Source: a virus. From it: a stretch of DNA of 15,982 nucleotides. The notes under the pieces are model-generated. The model was not told the DNA's origin. It saw only the letters and a list, made by a program, of their open reading frames with translations, and did not search any database. The stretch lies in UHGV virus genome UHGV-0177145. One strand, written 5' to 3'. The position numbers and the translations under genes are program-made. The number at the start of each line of letters is the position of its first letter. Within the stretch, counting starts at the first letter, position 1. Of this stretch, positions 6,425 through 13,160 are shown one piece after another.

Positions 6425-6453
6425 TTGACTGATTGTTAAGATGGTGTTAATAT
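6425..6453 (+). promoter_or_regulatory. Putative sigma70-like promoter for the small membrane-protein genes
   Basis: TTGACT (6425-6430), 17-nt spacer, TAATAT (6448-6453). A 9-bp inverted repeat AAGATGGTG (6438-6446) / CACCATCTT (6470-6478) brackets the -10 region. Confidence 0.35.
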
Positions 6454-6496
6454 TCTTTATGGGTATTCTCACCATCTTGGCTGATGAGGTGATTAA

Positions 6497-9692: not shown

Positions 9693-9992
9693 TTAATCTG
9701 CCAGCCTTAAATTAAAATTAACACCAAATTTTTCGCATACTTCCAACATAAACTCAAGAGAGACATTACCAGTGAGATTGATTATGTTGGATACACGAGC
9801 CTGAGAGATGCCACAAATTTTAGCAACTTGCTCTTGAGAAAGACCTCTGGATTTAATCTCTCTCTTAAAACGATGTGCAACGAAGTCTCTCATTTCGTCT
9901 ACATCCATTGGACAAATATAACTCTCCATTTCAGCCTCTCTGTCAGCCTCCCAATCATCTTGTGGAGCATAAGGGTCAAAAACCTCATTCAT
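9693..9992 (-). CDS. XRE-family helix-turn-helix DNA-binding protein
   Basis: C-terminal LSQEQVAKICGISQARVSNII is a classic XRE HTH. Track ORF starts at a TTG (10022); the ATG at 9990-9992 has an upstream GGAAGAAGAAAG purine tract and overlaps the upstream stop (ATGAATGA). Confidence 0.7.
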   Translation of the reverse strand: MNEVFDPYAPQDDWEADREAEMESYICPMDVDEMRDFVAHRFKREIKSRGLSQEQVAKICGISQARVSNIINLTGNVSLEFMLEVCEKFGVNFNLRLAD

Positions 9993-10197
9993 CTTTCTTC
10001 TTCCGTTTGCGTGAAGTGTCAATCAATGAATCTATGTTTGTAGCTCTAACCTTTTCACGTTCATCGTTAAGATAATCATCAAGAGCCTTTTCAATCTGTG
10101 AATCATCTTGACAGATAACTGTAAAGACTGTAAAGCCGTCTGTGTCATCAATTATCTTACCATAACCGCTTCTGGGATGTAACTTTTTAAGAGCCAT
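9985..10197 (-). CDS. Hypothetical small protein with lysine-rich C-terminus (70 aa)
   Basis: ORF ending SRKRKKKDE, translationally coupled to the HTH gene. Confidence 0.45.
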   Translation of the reverse strand: MALKKLHPRSGYGKIIDDTDGFTVFTVICQDDSQIEKALDDYLNDEREKVRATNIDSLIDTSRKRKKKDE

Positions 10198-10198
10198 A

Positions 10199-10582
10199 TC
10201 AAATACCTGTGCAGCTTCTGTTTTCTAAGAAATACTCAACACCATACATAGCTTTTTGCATCAAATCTTCTTTAAACTGAATACGATGATTGAGCATAGC
10301 CTGTGCATCAATATCATCATGGTGCTTCTCTTTAATATTTGCAGATTGCAGGAAATACTCTGCAAGAACGCGATACTGATAGTCAGTTACCTTATCAGTC
10401 ATCTCTGTTAAAGACTCTTCAGAGATTGGTTTAAGTAACTCACCATTAGCCAAAGCAACACCTTTAACAATCTGACAAGTGTCTTCTGGAACACCTGATA
10501 AGTCCACATTTGGAAGTTCTGTTGCATTGACTGGTAAATTCATTGCCATAATCATTGCAGCGGCTAATAAAATCTTTTTCAT
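10199..10582 (-). CDS. Secreted or periplasmic protein with Sec-type signal peptide (127 aa)
   Basis: MKKILLAAAMIMAMNLPVNA/TELP: positively charged n-region, hydrophobic core, AxA-like cleavage site. GAGG ribosome-binding site 7 nt upstream. Confidence 0.6.
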   Translation of the reverse strand: MKKILLAAAMIMAMNLPVNATELPNVDLSGVPEDTCQIVKGVALANGELLKPISEESLTEMTDKVTDYQYRVLAEYFLQSANIKEKHHDDIDAQAMLNHRIQFKEDLMQKAMYGVEYFLENRSCTGI

Positions 10583-10626
10583 AATGACCTCAAAGTTATA
10601 TTAAATTTTGTATTACGTTGAGTATA

Positions 10627-10674
10627 AAAATAAGCTATAACACCTGACTTGTCAATAGATTTTATAGCTTATTT
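10627..10674 (-). promoter_or_regulatory. Perfect 13-bp inverted repeat bracketing a putative proximal promoter
   Basis: AAATAAGCTATAA (10628-10640) / TTATAGCTTATTT (10662-10674), 21-nt spacer. On the minus strand the spacer holds TTGACA (10650-10655), 17 nt upstream of TATTTT (10627-10632). Confidence 0.3.
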
Positions 10675-10828
10675 GGCAGATTTTTTATAAGGCTACTGCC
10701 ATCCTTCCATACCAAACCACACCCTGCCAAACCAGAGCCTACTAGACCATACCGAACCAAACATCACTTAAAAACCCTTTTAAAAGACTCTTAAGTGATG
10801 TTGGTGAGTACCTGTTGGTTTATGCTGC

Positions 10829-10858
10829 TCAGTATACTCACCAAATTTTCTATGTCAA
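10829..10858 (-). promoter_or_regulatory. Strong sigma70-like promoter just downstream of the ligase stop codon
   Basis: Minus strand: TTGACA (10853-10858), 16-nt spacer, TATACT (10831-10836). A 10-bp inverted repeat TTGGTGAGTA (10801-10810) / TACTCACCAA (10835-10844) overlaps the -10 and the predicted start site. Confidence 0.45.
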
Positions 10859-10864
10859 CAACTT

Positions 10865-11968
10865 TTATTCGTAGTCTCGAATAACTAACCCAACAGGGAA
10901 CTGTAAAGACCCCTTACGAGTCATCTTCTGGAACTGTACCGTTAAAGGTTTCCCGATAAACTCTTCAGGGTGTTCAGCAAGATACTGTTTCTTCTCATGA
11001 GTAGTCTTCCATGAGACATCTACAAATACGTTAGGAAGAGTCTCTACAACGAACTTACCATGACCCCGCTTATCAGTCTTTACACCAGTCACTTTAAACT
11101 CTTCAGTGTGCATCTTCTTGTGCTTAATCAAGAAGTATGAACGGTGACAACACTCATAGAAGGAGTCTTCAGAGATTGAACGGTACATTGCACCTTCAAA
11201 CTTAGCTTCAACCCACTTATCATGAGCTTCATCAAACTCTTCCCAAGAATTTACACGACGAGACTTAACAGGGACAACTTTACAGCCATCTCTAAAGTCA
11301 TTCAATGGTGAAGTCTCAATGATATCTCTACGCTCAGGCCACGTCTTAGTGCTGTCACAGATATCATACCAGTAAAACTTGAGTAGGTGTCTGTCAGGAT
11401 TGTCTTCATTTTTAATCATGGAGACGATATCTTCTAAGTCCCACCCATGAGCATAAATCTCTCCATCAAATTCATCAACATCTTTGTGGAGCCTTAACAT
11501 TGCCATAATGTCAGGTATTAGTTCAGTAGGGATTTTGTAAACAGTATTCTCACGAGAATATGCTGTAAATACACTGCCAATACTCAAGTGCCTTGAAATT
11601 CTACAACGAACACCATCAAGTTTCGGTTGAGCATCAGCAGGGAACTTCAGGTACTTTGCATGGCTAACCTTTGCAGCATCATGAGCAAGCTGTACACCAA
11701 CTTTCTCAGTATTCTGTGCAGACTCTTTTGTGTAAGCATAACCTTTACGGTCAACTTGCTTTTTATACTTTGCAGCAACTTCAAAGAGAGCTTGCTGTTC
11801 AGCGTTACGCTCATTCTTTTTACCGATGTTTTTAGGTTCTGCTGTATACTCTTCAAACATCATCTTGCCATTTTCTTTACCGTAGGTTGTAATAACTTTG
11901 TCACCTACAGCGACGCATGACCAGACGTTAAAAGAGCCATCTTTATTTTGTTTGTACAGTGTTGTCAT
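10865..11968 (-). CDS. lig: ATP-dependent DNA ligase
   Basis: KLDGVR adenylation motif (KxDG, motif I); size (367 aa) in the range of T7-type phage ligases. Confidence 0.88.
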   Translation of the reverse strand: MTTLYKQNKDGSFNVWSCVAVGDKVITTYGKENGKMMFEEYTAEPKNIGKKNERNAEQQALFEVAAKYKKQVDRKGYAYTKESAQNTEKVGVQLAHDAAKVSHAKYLKFPADAQPKLDGVRCRISRHLSIGSVFTAYSRENTVYKIPTELIPDIMAMLRLHKDVDEFDGEIYAHGWDLEDIVSMIKNEDNPDRHLLKFYWYDICDSTKTWPERRDIIETSPLNDFRDGCKVVPVKSRRVNSWEEFDEAHDKWVEAKFEGAMYRSISEDSFYECCHRSYFLIKHKKMHTEEFKVTGVKTDKRGHGKFVVETLPNVFVDVSWKTTHEKKQYLAEHPEEFIGKPLTVQFQKMTRKGSLQFPVGLVIRDYE

Positions 11969-12656: not shown

Positions 12657-13160
12657 TCAACTTAGTTTTGCAAACTCTCCGTGGAGTTTTATAGCAGCTT
12701 CACAGTAAGCTTTATGGGCTTCTTCAGGTGTGTCAAATAAACCAAGTGATGTCCTTTTACCTCTGCATGTTATAGCTGCCCTCCACTTATTGCAGTCTTT
12801 AAAGTAATATACACCCTTGTAACCTGATTTGTTAGTTGTCTGCTTTACTCTATTTTGAGCATTTCCGTATTTATCAGTCTCCCTAAGATTAGAAATGTGA
12901 TTATTACTTCTGTTACCATCAATGTGGTCTATCATCTTAGTGGGTTTGTAACCATGTTCGAACCACCAAACGAGGTGATGAATTTTTATTACGACATCTT
13001 TGAATTTAAGTACTTTGTAACCGTAAGCATCAGCACCTCCTGCAATCTGCCCAGCTTTAGCTTGTCTATTCCTGTCATACTTGTTGTAGAAGACCCCTTT
13101 GTCGGGGTCGTAAATAAAATTATCCTTGTAATCTTGAAGTGTTAGTGTACGGCGTACCAT
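12657..13160 (-). CDS. HNH homing endonuclease with AP2-type DNA-binding domain
   Basis: HNH core HHLVWWFEHGY...IDHIDGNRSNNHISNL plus AP2-like SGYKGVYYFKDCNKWRAAITCRGKRTSLGLFDTPEEAHKAY. Start overlaps the last 19 nt of the polymerase gene. Confidence 0.8.
   Translation of the reverse strand: MVRRTLTLQDYKDNFIYDPDKGVFYNKYDRNRQAKAGQIAGGADAYGYKVLKFKDVVIKIHHLVWWFEHGYKPTKMIDHIDGNRSNNHISNLRETDKYGNAQNRVKQTTNKSGYKGVYYFKDCNKWRAAITCRGKRTSLGLFDTPEEAHKAYCEAAIKLHGEFAKLS

What the first reader, a model, noticed from the sequence alone, without database searches (positions are those of the whole stretch)
9693..10197. XRE-type HTH protein with an acidic N-terminal extension, coupled to a lysine-tailed small protein
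The HTH gene has an N-terminal half rich in D/E (DPYAPQDDWEADREAEMES) and its start overlaps the stop of the upstream 70-aa gene in ATGAATGA. It is the only evident DNA-binding regulator in the window and a candidate binder of the nearby palindromes at 10583-10864.
Basis: inference. Interest (0 to 1): 0.35.

Follow-up and report, generated by a model that had tools for sequence, protein, structure and literature searches.

The report
Felix O1 phage HTH regulator pair
This is the already-annotated but untested "transcriptional regulator" gene of Felix O1-like phages, always paired with a small partner gene. The nearby palindromes proposed as its binding sites mostly belong to a guide-RNA gene of the recently described VIPR system.

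Summary
A 99-aa XRE/Cro-type helix-turn-helix protein (9693-9992, minus strand) has an acidic N-terminal 28 residues. Its ATG overlaps the stop of a 70-aa gene (9985-10197) in ATGAATGA.

The window is a Felixounavirus, and the gene is Felix O1 ORF85. It is restricted to enterobacterial Ounavirinae and always occurs with the 70-aa gene. The SUSP1 homologue showed no fitness effect in a knock-down screen.

- **Conserved termini:** The acidic N-terminus of the HTH protein and the basic C-terminal tail of the 70-aa protein are the most constrained parts of both proteins. Both are predicted disordered, so a tail-to-tail interaction is the best guess. It is untested.
- **Palindromes:** The idea that the protein binds the palindromes at 10583-10864 is largely superseded. 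That spacer is a vipr-less VIPR locus: promoter P1, a leader hairpin, 12 GGY/NN repeats, a 3' pseudoknot tail, then a hairpin that contains promoter P2.
- **Remaining operator candidate:** Only the dyad around P2 (10628-10674) remains. Its perfect conservation is better explained by recent horizontal exchange of the VIPR cassette.

The HTH gene is an ordinary, uncharacterised member of a known family. Interest is modest.

The parts
9693..9992 (-). HTH protein gene, 99 aa from ATG 9992 (Felix O1 ORF85 / Felix01p155 homologue)
   Evidence: ORF list. Pfam HTH_3 at 43.1 bits, PHROG phrog_1373. 96-100% identical to annotated 'transcriptional regulator' genes in Felixounavirus records. The ATG start is supported by 99-aa homologues and a conserved SD.
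9909..9992 (-). Acidic, aromatic N-terminal extension (residues 1-28, net charge -8); motif FDPYAPxDxxE..EM is invariant
   Evidence: Alignment A1. pN 0.06-0.16 against 0.16-0.29 for the HTH domain, with pS 0.43-0.56. AF2 pLDDT 53-58, with only a low-confidence helix at 13-23. No relative outside Ounavirinae in 1.84e9 representatives.
9726..9902 (-). Five-helix XRE/Cro-C1 DNA-binding domain (residues 31-89). Helix 2-turn-helix 3 (residues about 51-72) is nearly invariant
   Evidence: AF2 helices 31-48, 53-60, 64-72, 79-89 with pLDDT 86-91. Foldseek PDB top hits are 2a6c, HipB, DdrO, C.BclI, SinR and HigA2, probability 1.0, TM 0.6-0.75 normalised to the target. Invariant residues Q53 A57 C60 I62 S63 Q64 V67 S68 N69 I70.
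9985..10197 (-). 70-aa partner gene (Felix O1 ORF86; phrog_4473, unknown function)
   Evidence: Found in the same 259 enteric phage records as the HTH gene. AF2 gives three strands plus one helix at pLDDT about 72, with the tail below 50. No fold match in PDB, E >= 1.
9988..10050 (-). Conserved, predicted-disordered basic C-terminal tail of the 70-aa protein (VRATN[I/L]DSLIDTSRKR[K/R]KKDE). Its last codons carry the SD of the HTH gene
   Evidence: pN 0.041 with pS 0.29-0.83; the preceding 26 codons have pN 0.26-0.42. Synonymous changes are visible in A4.
9985..9992 (-). 8-nt start/stop overlap ATGAATGA (translational coupling)
   Evidence: Conserved in five diverged phages.
10199..10582 (-). 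First gene of the operon: 127-aa protein with a predicted signal peptide and two conserved Cys (Felix O1 ORF87; phrog_4332)
   Evidence: Syntenic in all relatives examined.
10627..10674 (-). Promoter P2 (TTGACA 10650-10655, 17 nt, TATTTT 10627-10632) embedded in a dyad/hairpin with 13-nt perfect arms AAATAAGCTATAA / TTATAGCTTATTT. This is the only remaining operator candidate
   Evidence: Promoter scan 10/12. Inverted repeat I4. Hairpin dG -15.9, z -3.95. The arm sequence occurs nowhere else in the window at <=2 mismatches. No other copy of the P2 block in Felix O1 (14-mer scan at <=2 mismatches).
10675..10712 (-). VIPR vrRNA 3' tail: stem GGCAG/CTGCC plus pseudoknot AAGG:CCTT
   Evidence: Lies within the 93-nt block that is identical in Felix O1 and SUSP1 and invariant in the window and four relatives except one G/A position in the P2 part. 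Structure counts: 95.6% of cells paired, 9 of 10 pairs compensatory, 0 of 500 shuffles. The published vrRNA has an invariable tail with a pseudoknot (bioRxiv 10.64898/2026.04.26.720920).
10710..10769 (-). 12 in-phase pentamer units N-[G/A/T]G[T/C]-N, the GGY/NN repeat tract of an orphan vrRNA
   Evidence: The only such array in the window, and the orthologous array is the only one in the 86-kb Felix O1 genome. Five Felix O1 shuffles scanned at a stricter threshold gave 0 hits. Published vrRNAs have 9-16 YNNGG repeats.
10760..10802 (-).
   Evidence: dG -22.5 on the sense strand against -16.5 antisense. Across 15 copies, G-U at 3 pairs in 13-15 copies and 6 pairs with compensatory changes.
10803..10858 (-). 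Promoter P1 (TTGACA 10853-10858, 16 nt, TATACT 10831-10836) with overlapping palindrome GGTGAGTA..TACTCACC (10803-10842). Same position and sequence as the promoter upstream of SUSP1 vrRNA1
   Evidence: Promoter scan 11/12..

Best explanation
The gene encodes a small XRE/Cro-C1-type sequence-specific DNA-binding protein. It is made in fixed proportion with the 70-aa protein encoded just upstream, because the two genes are translationally coupled.

The most likely mechanism is as follows. The HTH domain binds DNA, presumably as a dimer. Its conserved acidic, aromatic N-terminal peptide is a protein-interaction segment. It either docks onto the conserved basic C-terminal tail of the 70-aa partner or masks the HTH until the partner binds.

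The most likely target is the promoter of its own accessory operon, P2, through the dyad around the -35 element. This would give negative feedback, as in antitoxin-type and Aca-type HTH autoregulators.

The cassette is an accessory, non-essential early/middle module of enterobacterial Felix O1-like phages. It is not the master temporal switch.

**Shown:** the fold, the conservation pattern, the gene coupling, the distribution, and no fitness effect for the SUSP1 homologue.
**Inferred:** DNA binding, dimerisation, the tail-to-tail contact, and the target.
For: - **Fold and family:** Pfam HTH_3 above its cut-off. AF2 five-helix bundle with pLDDT 86-91, and Foldseek matches to 2a6c, HipB, C-proteins, SinR and HigA2.
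- **DNA-reading part conserved:** Helix 2-turn-helix 3 is nearly invariant while helices 1, 4 and 5 vary.
- **N-terminus constrained:** The N-terminal 28 residues have pN 0.06-0.16 against 0.16-0.29 for the domain. The partner's tail has pN 0.04 with pS up to 0.83. Both are predicted disordered, with charges -8 and +3/+4.
- **Coupling and co-occurrence:** The 8-nt overlap and an SD inside the partner's tail codons are conserved in five diverged phages. The two genes occur in the same 259 enteric phage records.
- **Accessory status:** The 127-aa/70-aa/HTH trio is absent next to the 119-aa homologue in Erwinia phiEa21-4 and Pectobacterium Wc4. The SUSP1 homologue agp035 and its neighbours agp034, 036 and 037 were 'Not Fit' in CRISPRi-ART (PMC11879866, supplement file 16).
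- **Expression timing of neighbours:** Felix O1 ORFs 83, 84, 87 and 88 peak at 25 min (PMC3185647).
- **Candidate operator:** P2 lies 45 nt upstream of the first gene of the operon. It carries a perfect 13-bp-arm dyad over its -35 and -10 elements.
- **Precedent:** Aca2 is an HTH homodimer that represses its own operon through inverted repeats in the promoter (PMC6765145).
Against: - No binding data exist.
- The dyad arms are 34 bp apart centre to centre, which is unusual for a single XRE dimer.
- The same sequence is a stable sense-strand hairpin followed by a U-rich run, so it may act as RNA.
- The perfect conservation of the P2 block is not evidence of operator constraint. Vipr and Vap1 are 97-100% identical across genera in which the HTH protein is only 63-79% identical. 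The whole P1-to-P2 cassette has therefore been exchanged recently.
- No second copy of the dyad arm exists.
- The tail-to-tail contact rests only on conservation, predicted disorder and charge. No complex prediction could be run.
- Part of the basic tail is forced by the SD of the downstream gene.
- Aca1 loss is reported to be harmful to its phage (my recollection of Stanley et al. 2019). Knock-down of the SUSP1 homologue had no fitness effect, although that screen has false negatives.
Confidence: 0.4

Rival explanations
1. The HTH protein, with or without its partner, acts in trans on foreign DNA. It would repress or de-repress promoters of a competing phage, a satellite or a host defence locus. 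On this reading the cassette is part of an inter-phage conflict island next to the VIPR locus.
For: - The cassette sits immediately downstream of the VIPR vrRNA array in every genome examined.
- SUSP1 vrRNAs are reported to target a satellite that parasitises the phage (bioRxiv 10.64898/2026.04.26.720920).
- The cassette had no fitness effect on a laboratory host and is confined to one clade.
- The invariant recognition helix implies a target shared across genera.
- Weak similarity to control-protein and antitoxin-type HTHs in PADLOC and NCBIfam.
Against: - No target was identified.
- No similarity to Vap1 or to any solved Aca protein.
- The VIPR authors define the locus as vipr + vap + vrRNAs only.
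- The cassette is present whether or not vipr is present.
Confidence: 0.2
2. The protein binds RNA rather than, or as well as, DNA. The target would be the hairpin formed by the P2 dyad or the vrRNA leader hairpin. It would then control termination, processing or translation, as reported for Aca2.
For: - The palindromes in the spacer are demonstrably RNA-type structures, with G-U pairs and compensatory changes.
- Hairpin C is more stable on the sense strand, -15.9 against -11.7 kcal/mol.
- From memory, not checked here: Aca2 binds both promoter DNA and an mRNA stem-loop (Birkholz et al. 2024).
Against: - XRE domains are overwhelmingly dsDNA binders.
- Hairpin C shows no variation, so no covariation test is possible.
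- Nothing links the HTH protein to these RNAs except proximity.
Confidence: 0.1
3. It is the general temporal regulator of Felix O1-type phages, driving early shut-off or middle/late activation. The acidic N-terminus would contact host RNA polymerase.
For: - It is the only gene annotated as a transcriptional regulator in the Felix O1 genome.
- The Felix O1 paper states that temporal regulation is unexplained and that no polymerase modifiers were found (PMC3185647).
- The acidic, aromatic N-terminus resembles an activation peptide. This is an inference.
Against: - The SUSP1 homologue showed no fitness effect on knock-down.
- It is absent from other Ounavirinae that share the same core genome.
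- No recurrent palindromic motif was found at phage promoters.
Confidence: 0.08
4. The 70-aa and HTH genes form a toxin-antitoxin-like pair with HigB/HigA gene order. The disordered acidic N-terminus would neutralise the upstream protein.
For: - The gene order, the overlap and the disordered-extension-plus-XRE layout fit this.
- The best sequence and structure neighbours include HigA2, HigA3, HipB and PezA.
- From memory: V. cholerae HigA2 has an N-terminal disordered neutralising segment.
Against: - The 70-aa protein matches no toxin family in Pfam, NCBIfam, PADLOC or PHROGs.
- It has no PDB fold match, E >= 1.
- Its most conserved part is a disordered tail, not a folded active site.
- NCBIfam antitoxin scores are far below their cut-offs: 25.7 against 290, 24.9 against 71.65, and 20.7 against 47.7.
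Confidence: 0.07

Closest known systems
Small XRE/Cro-C1 (Pfam HTH_3 / HTH_37) regulators, such as NE_1354 (PDB 2a6c), HipB and HigA2
   Same: The five-helix HTH fold. Pfam HTH_3 scores 43.1 bits and HTH_37 27.8 bits. Foldseek TM is 0.6-0.75 normalised to the target. The protein is small.
   Different: A 28-residue acidic, aromatic N-terminal peptide that is conserved more strongly than the domain itself and has no relative outside Ounavirinae. There is no recognisable toxin partner.
Anti-CRISPR-associated (Aca) HTH autorepressors, such as Aca2 (PMC6765145)
   Same: A small HTH gene at the distal end of a run of small, fast-evolving genes of unknown function. These lie behind a strong sigma-70 promoter that carries an inverted repeat. 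The predicted role is negative feedback.
   Different: No sequence similarity to any solved Aca protein. The upstream genes are not known anti-defence genes. No fitness effect on knock-down of the SUSP1 homologue. The inverted-repeat arms are 34 bp apart.
Restriction-modification controller (C) proteins, such as C.BclI, C.AhdI and C.Esp1396I
   Same: Similar fold and size, and weak PADLOC 'Control_protein' hits at E 2.6e-5. From my own knowledge, C-protein operators are about 35 bp and bind two dimers, a length comparable to the 47-bp P2 dyad.
   Different: No restriction-modification genes nearby. Each P2 arm lacks the internal symmetry that a dimer per arm would need.
VIPR type II locus of phage SUSP1 (bioRxiv 10.64898/2026.04.26.720920 and .720927). 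This concerns the palindrome-bearing spacer, not the HTH gene
   Same: The same P1 promoter and leader hairpin, 12 GGY/NN repeats, and a 3' tail identical to that of the last SUSP1 vrRNA. It sits at the same position, immediately upstream of the 127-aa/70-aa/HTH operon.
   Different: The window has no vipr or vap1 gene. Only one vrRNA is left, and 8 of its 12 units are strict GGY.

Membership tests
XRE / Cro-C1 HTH (Pfam PF01381 HTH_3) | Profile match above the curated gathering score | tested here: met
   43.1 bits against a cut-off of 23, residues 43-93. HTH_37 is marginal at 27.8 against 27.
XRE / Cro-C1 HTH (Pfam PF01381 HTH_3) | Five-helix bundle with helix 2-turn-helix 3 | tested here: met
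   AF2 helices 31-48, 53-60, 64-72 and 79-89 at pLDDT 86-91. Foldseek probability 1.0 to 2a6c, HipB, SinR and C.BclI.
XRE / Cro-C1 HTH (Pfam PF01381 HTH_3) | Sequence-specific binding to dyad-symmetric DNA | not testable with these tools
   Needs EMSA, footprinting or ChIP.
Type II toxin-antitoxin antitoxin (HigA / HipB / PezA) | Score above the NCBIfam family cut-off | tested here: not met
   PezA 25.7 against 290, Y4mF/HipB 24.9 against 71.65, HigA 20.7 against 47.7.
Type II toxin-antitoxin antitoxin (HigA / HipB / PezA) | Adjacent gene belongs to a toxin family | tested here: not met
   The 70-aa protein has no significant hit in Pfam, NCBIfam or PADLOC, only the unknown-function phrog_4473 in PHROGs. 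Foldseek against PDB gives E >= 1.
Anti-CRISPR-associated (Aca) proteins | Homology to a described Aca family | tested here: not met
   A profile search of all PDB chains at E <= 10 returned no chain named as an anti-CRISPR-associated protein. PMC8434428, PMC8633003 and PMC9410881 report solved Aca1, Aca2 and Aca10 structures. Aca families without structures were not tested.
Anti-CRISPR-associated (Aca) proteins | Operon with an upstream anti-CRISPR gene | not testable with these tools
   The upstream 127-aa and 70-aa proteins have no known function.
VIPR vrRNA (spacer 10675-10858, not the HTH gene) | Tandem YNNGG (GGY/NN) repeats, 9-16 units, kept in phase | tested here: met
   12 in-phase units, 11 fitting the pattern N[G/A/T]G[T/C]N and 8 with strict GGY. 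It is the only such array in the window.
VIPR vrRNA (spacer 10675-10858, not the HTH gene) | Invariable 3' tail with a conserved structure and pseudoknot | tested here: met
   The tail lies within the 93-nt block that is identical in Felix O1 and SUSP1 and invariant in the window except one position in the P2 part. Nine of 10 pairs are compensatory across 9 distinct tails.
VIPR vrRNA (spacer 10675-10858, not the HTH gene) | Adjacent vipr (RAMP) gene | tested here: not met
   tblastn with SUSP1 Vipr and Vap1 gives no hit in the window or in Felix O1. It gives 97-100% hits in 12 sibling loci.
VIPR vrRNA (spacer 10675-10858, not the HTH gene) | Expressed as an RNA of about 100 nt that loads onto Vipr | not testable with these tools
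   Shown for SUSP1 by sRNA-seq and pull-down in the preprint. Not known for vipr-less phages.

The most novel reading that the evidence does not exclude
The 127-aa/70-aa/HTH cassette is a functional arm of the VIPR inter-phage conflict locus, to which it is always attached. The HTH protein and its partner would set expression from P1 and P2, and hence vrRNA and accessory-gene dosage, or would counter rival phages or satellites.

Separately, the single hypervariable vrRNA kept by vipr-less Felix O1-type phages may be functional rather than a remnant. It could load onto Vipr supplied in trans by co-infecting relatives or satellites, or it could act as a decoy for a rival's Vipr.
Probability: 0.12. 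Interest if true: 0.7.

Novelty: new member of a known kind. Interest (0 to 1): 0.3.

Why it matters
Felix O1-like phages are widely used for Salmonella and E. coli typing and biocontrol. Their transcriptional control is still unexplained (PMC3185647). This is the only transcription-factor-like gene annotated in Felix O1, so knowing its target would be useful.

The evidence here argues that it is an accessory, clade-specific regulator rather than the master switch.

The practical value of this check is a re-annotation. The 'operator-like' palindromes next to it belong to a VIPR guide-RNA locus. Felix O1-type genomes are polymorphic for the vipr-vap genes but always keep at least one vrRNA and the HTH cassette.

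If the conserved acidic N-terminus and the partner's basic tail do interact, that would be a compact new way of gating an XRE regulator.

Tried and rejected
1. **A shared operator among the three palindromes.** The derived half-site GGTG[AT][GT][AT]A.. occurs as inverted pairs only at the two sites it was derived from, in the window, Felix O1 and SUSP1. The count is 17 against about 9.6 expected in Felix O1. The test is circular and the idea was rejected.
2. **Further copies of the P2 block or its dyad arm.** None in Felix O1 or in the window.
3. **Invariance of the 93-nt P2 block as evidence of operator constraint.** It is the longest exact intergenic match between Felix O1 and SUSP1. I withdrew the argument once Vipr and Vap1 proved 97-100% identical across the same genera, which means recent cassette transfer.
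4. **Toxin-like or other known fold for the 70-aa protein.** The model has pLDDT 63.6 and no PDB match.
5. **PDB top hit 8vd6 'CAP repeat' (E 3e-12).** This looks like a tandem repeat protein that matches the query four times over. I treated it as an artefact.
6. **Rfam.** Nothing significant between 9000 and 11500.
7. **My interim ideas for the GGT pentamers.** These were a TRAP-like ring protein site, a primase-site array or origin, an R-loop, G-quadruplexes, and a Rho-proof leader. All are superseded by the VIPR identification.
8. **Natural target of the window's vrRNA under the published 1-nt-skip rule.** No exact match in 185,579 representative genomes or in IMG/VR.
9. **Targets of 46 related vrRNAs.** None matches the window, Felix O1 or SUSP1 clearly above the shuffled-order control. 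The best was 0.90 on a 10-dinucleotide array against a null maximum of 0.82.
10. **Similarity of the HTH protein to Vap1.** None.
11. **Literature on Felixounavirus transcriptomes.** Nothing useful found.
Full report
**What the window is.** It is 96-97% identical to Felixounavirus genomes, that is, Felix O1-like myoviruses of Salmonella and E. coli. Its minus strand carries the replication and nucleotide-metabolism transcription unit. In order this runs: DNA polymerase, an HNH-AP2 homing endonuclease, small ORFs, DNA ligase (10865-11968), a 282-nt spacer, then genes for 127-aa, 70-aa, 99-aa (HTH), 119-aa, 171-aa and 86-aa proteins, then DHFR and thymidylate synthase. The HTH gene is Felix O1 ORF85 (Felix01p155). 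Its neighbours are ORF86 (70 aa), ORF87 (127 aa) and ORF84 (119 aa).

**Observation.**
- The conserved start is the ATG at 9992, giving 99 aa. The stop of the 70-aa gene is at 9985-9987, so the genes overlap in ATGAATGA.
- The overlap is conserved in Suspvirus, Mooglevirus and the unclassified phage pEC-M719-6WT.1, where it reads ATGAATAG.
- Residues 43-93 match Pfam HTH_3 at 43.1 bits against a cut-off of 23.
- The N-terminal 28 residues have net charge -8, and the partner ends in TSRKRKKKDE.
- The purine-rich Lys/Arg codons of that tail also form the Shine-Dalgarno region of the HTH gene (GGAAGAAG or GGAGGAAG, 6-9 nt upstream of the ATG). Part of the 'lysine tail' is therefore forced by the downstream gene.

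**The protein.**
- AlphaFold2 with the family alignment gives a confident five-helix XRE domain at residues 31-89. The N-terminus is low-confidence, with one weak helix at 13-23.
- The closest solved folds are generic small XRE proteins: 2a6c, HipB, DdrO, C.BclI, SinR and HigA2.
- Full-length relatives exist only in enterobacterial Ounavirinae. There are 259 enteric phage records, plus two weak Zymomonas hits to the HTH domain only. Only three 50%-identity clusters score better than 1e-27 among 1.84 billion representatives.
- All other hits match the HTH domain only.
- The family alignment shows two conserved islands. One is the N-terminal motif FDPYAPxDxxE..EM. The other is helix 2-turn-helix 3 (L51-I70), which is the DNA-reading part.
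- Non-synonymous divergence in codons 1-28 is about half that of the domain. Synonymous sites there are well diverged (pS 0.43-0.56), so the constraint acts on the peptide and not on the nucleotides.

**The partner.**
- The 70-aa protein (phrog_4473) occurs in the same 259 enteric records.
- Its body evolves fast, with pN 0.26-0.42. Its last 21 residues are almost frozen, with pN 0.04 and pS up to 0.83.
- The body is modelled as three strands and a helix at moderate confidence. The tail is modelled as disordered.
- It has no PDB fold match and no family hit beyond its unknown-function PHROG.
- So there are two strongly constrained, oppositely charged, disordered termini, encoded on either side of a translationally coupled junction. 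The simplest reading is that they bind each other or a common partner. This is an inference that I could not test.

**How important is the gene?**
- The trio of 127-aa, 70-aa and HTH genes is missing next to the 119-aa homologue in Erwinia phage phiEa21-4 and Pectobacterium phage Wc4. These belong to the same subfamily.
- In the CRISPRi-ART screen of SUSP1, the homologue agp035 scored 0.37 with p = 0.20 ('Not Fit'). So did agp034, agp036 and agp037 (PMC11879866, supplement file 16). That screen has false negatives; ligase was also 'Not Fit'.
- Felix O1 RT-PCR placed neighbouring ORFs 83, 84, 87 and 88 at the 25-min maximum. ORFs 85 and 86 are not listed (PMC3185647).
- Together this points to an accessory early/middle cassette. 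It does not look like the missing temporal regulator that the Felix O1 paper says is unidentified.

**The palindromes.** The spacer 10583-10864 carries two near-consensus sigma-70 promoters on the sense strand.
- P1 is TTGACA, 16 nt, TATACT (11 of 12 positions).
- P2 is TTGACA, 17 nt, TATTTT (10 of 12 positions).

Between them I found a strong hairpin, then 12 in-phase pentamers N-GGT-N, then a second hairpin. The pentamer array is the only one in the window, and the orthologous array is the only one in the 86-kb Felix O1 genome.

The same module is repeated two to five times in pEC-M719, SUSP1, SUSP2 and Moogle. In the last three it flanks two extra genes. Similar heterogeneous GGT-pentamer arrays occur in many unrelated viral contigs. 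In at least 11 of the 21 such contigs I inspected, the adjacent gene encodes a protein of about 190 aa with shared N- and C-terminal motifs; six were scanned and all are phrog_4652.

A profile of that family matches PDB 36pp, 'SUSP1 Vipr protein', at E 7e-56. This led to two 2026 preprints on VIPR systems. In these, Vipr is a RAMP protein that polymerises on vrRNAs made of 9-16 YNNGG repeats, capped by an invariable 3' pseudoknot tail. The complex silences DNA targets that are read through the NN dinucleotides (bioRxiv 10.64898/2026.04.26.720920 and .720927).

In SUSP1 the locus runs: P1, vrRNA1, vipr (agp039), vap1 (agp038), vrRNA2-4, P2, agp037 (127 aa), agp036 (70 aa), agp035 (HTH).

**What the spacer in this window is.** It is the vipr-less allele of that locus.
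- tblastn finds Vipr and Vap1 (97-100% identical) in 12 of 24 related loci.
- It finds no hit in the window, Felix O1 or pEC-M719, nor in seven other loci.
- In the window, P1 lies 154 nt from the tail, which leaves room for a single vrRNA.
- The tail (10675-10712) shows the published stem-plus-pseudoknot. Nine of its 10 pairs have compensatory changes across nine distinct tails. 95.6% of cells are paired, against 30-44% when the partners are slid. None of 500 shuffles reaches the observed values.
- The leader hairpin (10760-10802) has G-U at three pairs in 13-15 of 15 copies and six compensatory pairs. It is 6 kcal/mol more stable on the sense strand. It is therefore an RNA structure and not a duplex operator.
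- The NN positions of the P2-proximal vrRNA differ in almost every genome, while the phase and the tail are kept.

**Consequence for the finding.**
- 10801-10844 overlaps the vrRNA promoter P1.
- The remaining palindromic elements of the 10583-10864 spacer, the leader hairpin (10760-10802) and the tail stem (10675-10700), are vrRNA structure.
- 6438-6478 is a separate hairpin over a promoter upstream of the holin-like genes. It shares no recurrent half-site with the others.

Only 10628-10674 remains a plausible operator. It has perfect 13-bp arms flanking the -35 of P2, and the 3' arm overlaps the -10. This is the position where a repressor of the 127-aa/70-aa/HTH operon would sit.

Three things weaken it. 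The arms are 34 bp apart. The sequence is also a good hairpin followed by a U-rich run. Its total invariance is explained by recent horizontal exchange of the whole P1-to-P2 VIPR cassette, because Vipr is 97-100% identical where the HTH protein is only 63-79% identical.

I therefore rate autoregulation at P2 as the best available mechanism, but only at about 0.4. It is modelled on antitoxin-type and Aca-type HTH autorepressors (PMC6765145). The rivals are a trans-acting role in inter-phage or host conflict, RNA binding, global temporal control, and a toxin-antitoxin pair.

**Family membership.** The protein is a member of XRE/HTH_3. It fails the tests for HigA, HipB and PezA antitoxins, because scores are far below cut-off and no toxin partner is recognisable. 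It has no detectable relation to the solved Aca proteins or to Vap1.

**Verdict.** This is a real, conserved, already-annotated but functionally untested XRE regulator. It has an unreported, strongly constrained acidic N-terminal peptide and an obligate small partner. As a regulator it is ordinary, and interest in it is modest. The more notable result of the check is contextual: the adjacent 'palindromes' are an orphan VIPR guide-RNA gene.

Noticed in passing
window 10675-10858 (minus strand): An orphan VIPR guide-RNA (vrRNA) gene with no vipr or vap gene in the window. It consists of promoter P1, a leader hairpin, 12 GGY/NN pentamers and a 3' pseudoknot tail. I found the repeats independently and then identified them through PDB 36pp and two 2026 preprints.
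   Followed up: yes
loci L003, L006, L038, L132-L149 (the region between ligase and the 127-aa gene): Felix O1-like genomes are polymorphic at this locus. Twelve of 24 loci carry vipr + vap1. The others keep one or two vrRNAs without vipr. Vipr and Vap1 are 97-100% identical across Felixounavirus, Suspvirus and Mooglevirus, while the neighbouring HTH protein is 63-79% identical. This implies recent horizontal exchange of the cassette. The main VIPR preprint has no occurrence of the word 'orphan'.
   Followed up: partly
same loci, last vrRNA before P2 (window 10710-10769): The NN dinucleotides of the P2-proximal vrRNA differ in nearly every genome, while the 5-nt phase and the tail are kept. 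[quoted passage not shown]
   Followed up: partly
window 6425-6478 (plus strand): A very stable hairpin (dG -23.7, z -8.2) with arms AAGATGGTGTTAATA / TATTCTCACCATCTT. It overlaps an extended -10 promoter (TTGACT, 17 nt, TGtTAATAT) upstream of the 65-aa and 123-aa holin-region genes. The arms are identical in Felix O1 and SUSP1. Its function is unknown.
   Followed up: partly
Felix O1 genome (L002 + L003), intergenic regions: The motif CTTAAAAG and close variants is about 6-fold enriched in intergenic DNA, with 24 of 43 copies in 9% of the genome. Copies cluster in the two divergent promoter regions (21.4-21.7 kb and 63.5-63.7 kb) and in the 1.6-kb non-coding stretch at 12.3-13.9 kb. It may be a phage-specific regulatory or terminator-stem motif.
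   Followed up: partly
window 10199-10582 (minus strand): The 127-aa first gene of the operon appears to have a cleavable Sec signal peptide (MKKILLAAAMIMAMNLPVNA/TE) and two conserved cysteines. It is probably a periplasmic protein of unknown role and is always found with the 70-aa/HTH pair.
   Followed up: no
window 12657-13160 (minus strand); L001 6889-7707: An HNH-AP2 homing endonuclease gene sits directly downstream of the DNA polymerase gene and overlaps its end. In Salmonella phage RPN213 the polymerase is annotated as two separate CDSs, so the polymerase region is variable among relatives.
   Followed up: no
GenBank records GU169904 (Staphylococcus phage SA1), MG065664 and MG065668 (Campylobacter phages A132 and A126): These records carry Felix O1-like sequence that is 95-99% identical to the window. 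For those hosts this looks like contamination or chimeric assembly rather than real biology.
   Followed up: no
IMG/VR loci L017, L024, L070, L022 and others: Other phages carry long tandem vrRNA arrays of 7-10 units, separated by short conserved spacers. Examples are AAGGCTAATG in L017 and AAGGAATGGTTTAATGAATTTAATTT in L024. They lie next to vipr homologues, and some are adjacent to what look like Sak4-like ATPase or terminase genes (judged by eye, not scanned). This fits the diversity of VIPR types described in the preprint.
   Followed up: partly
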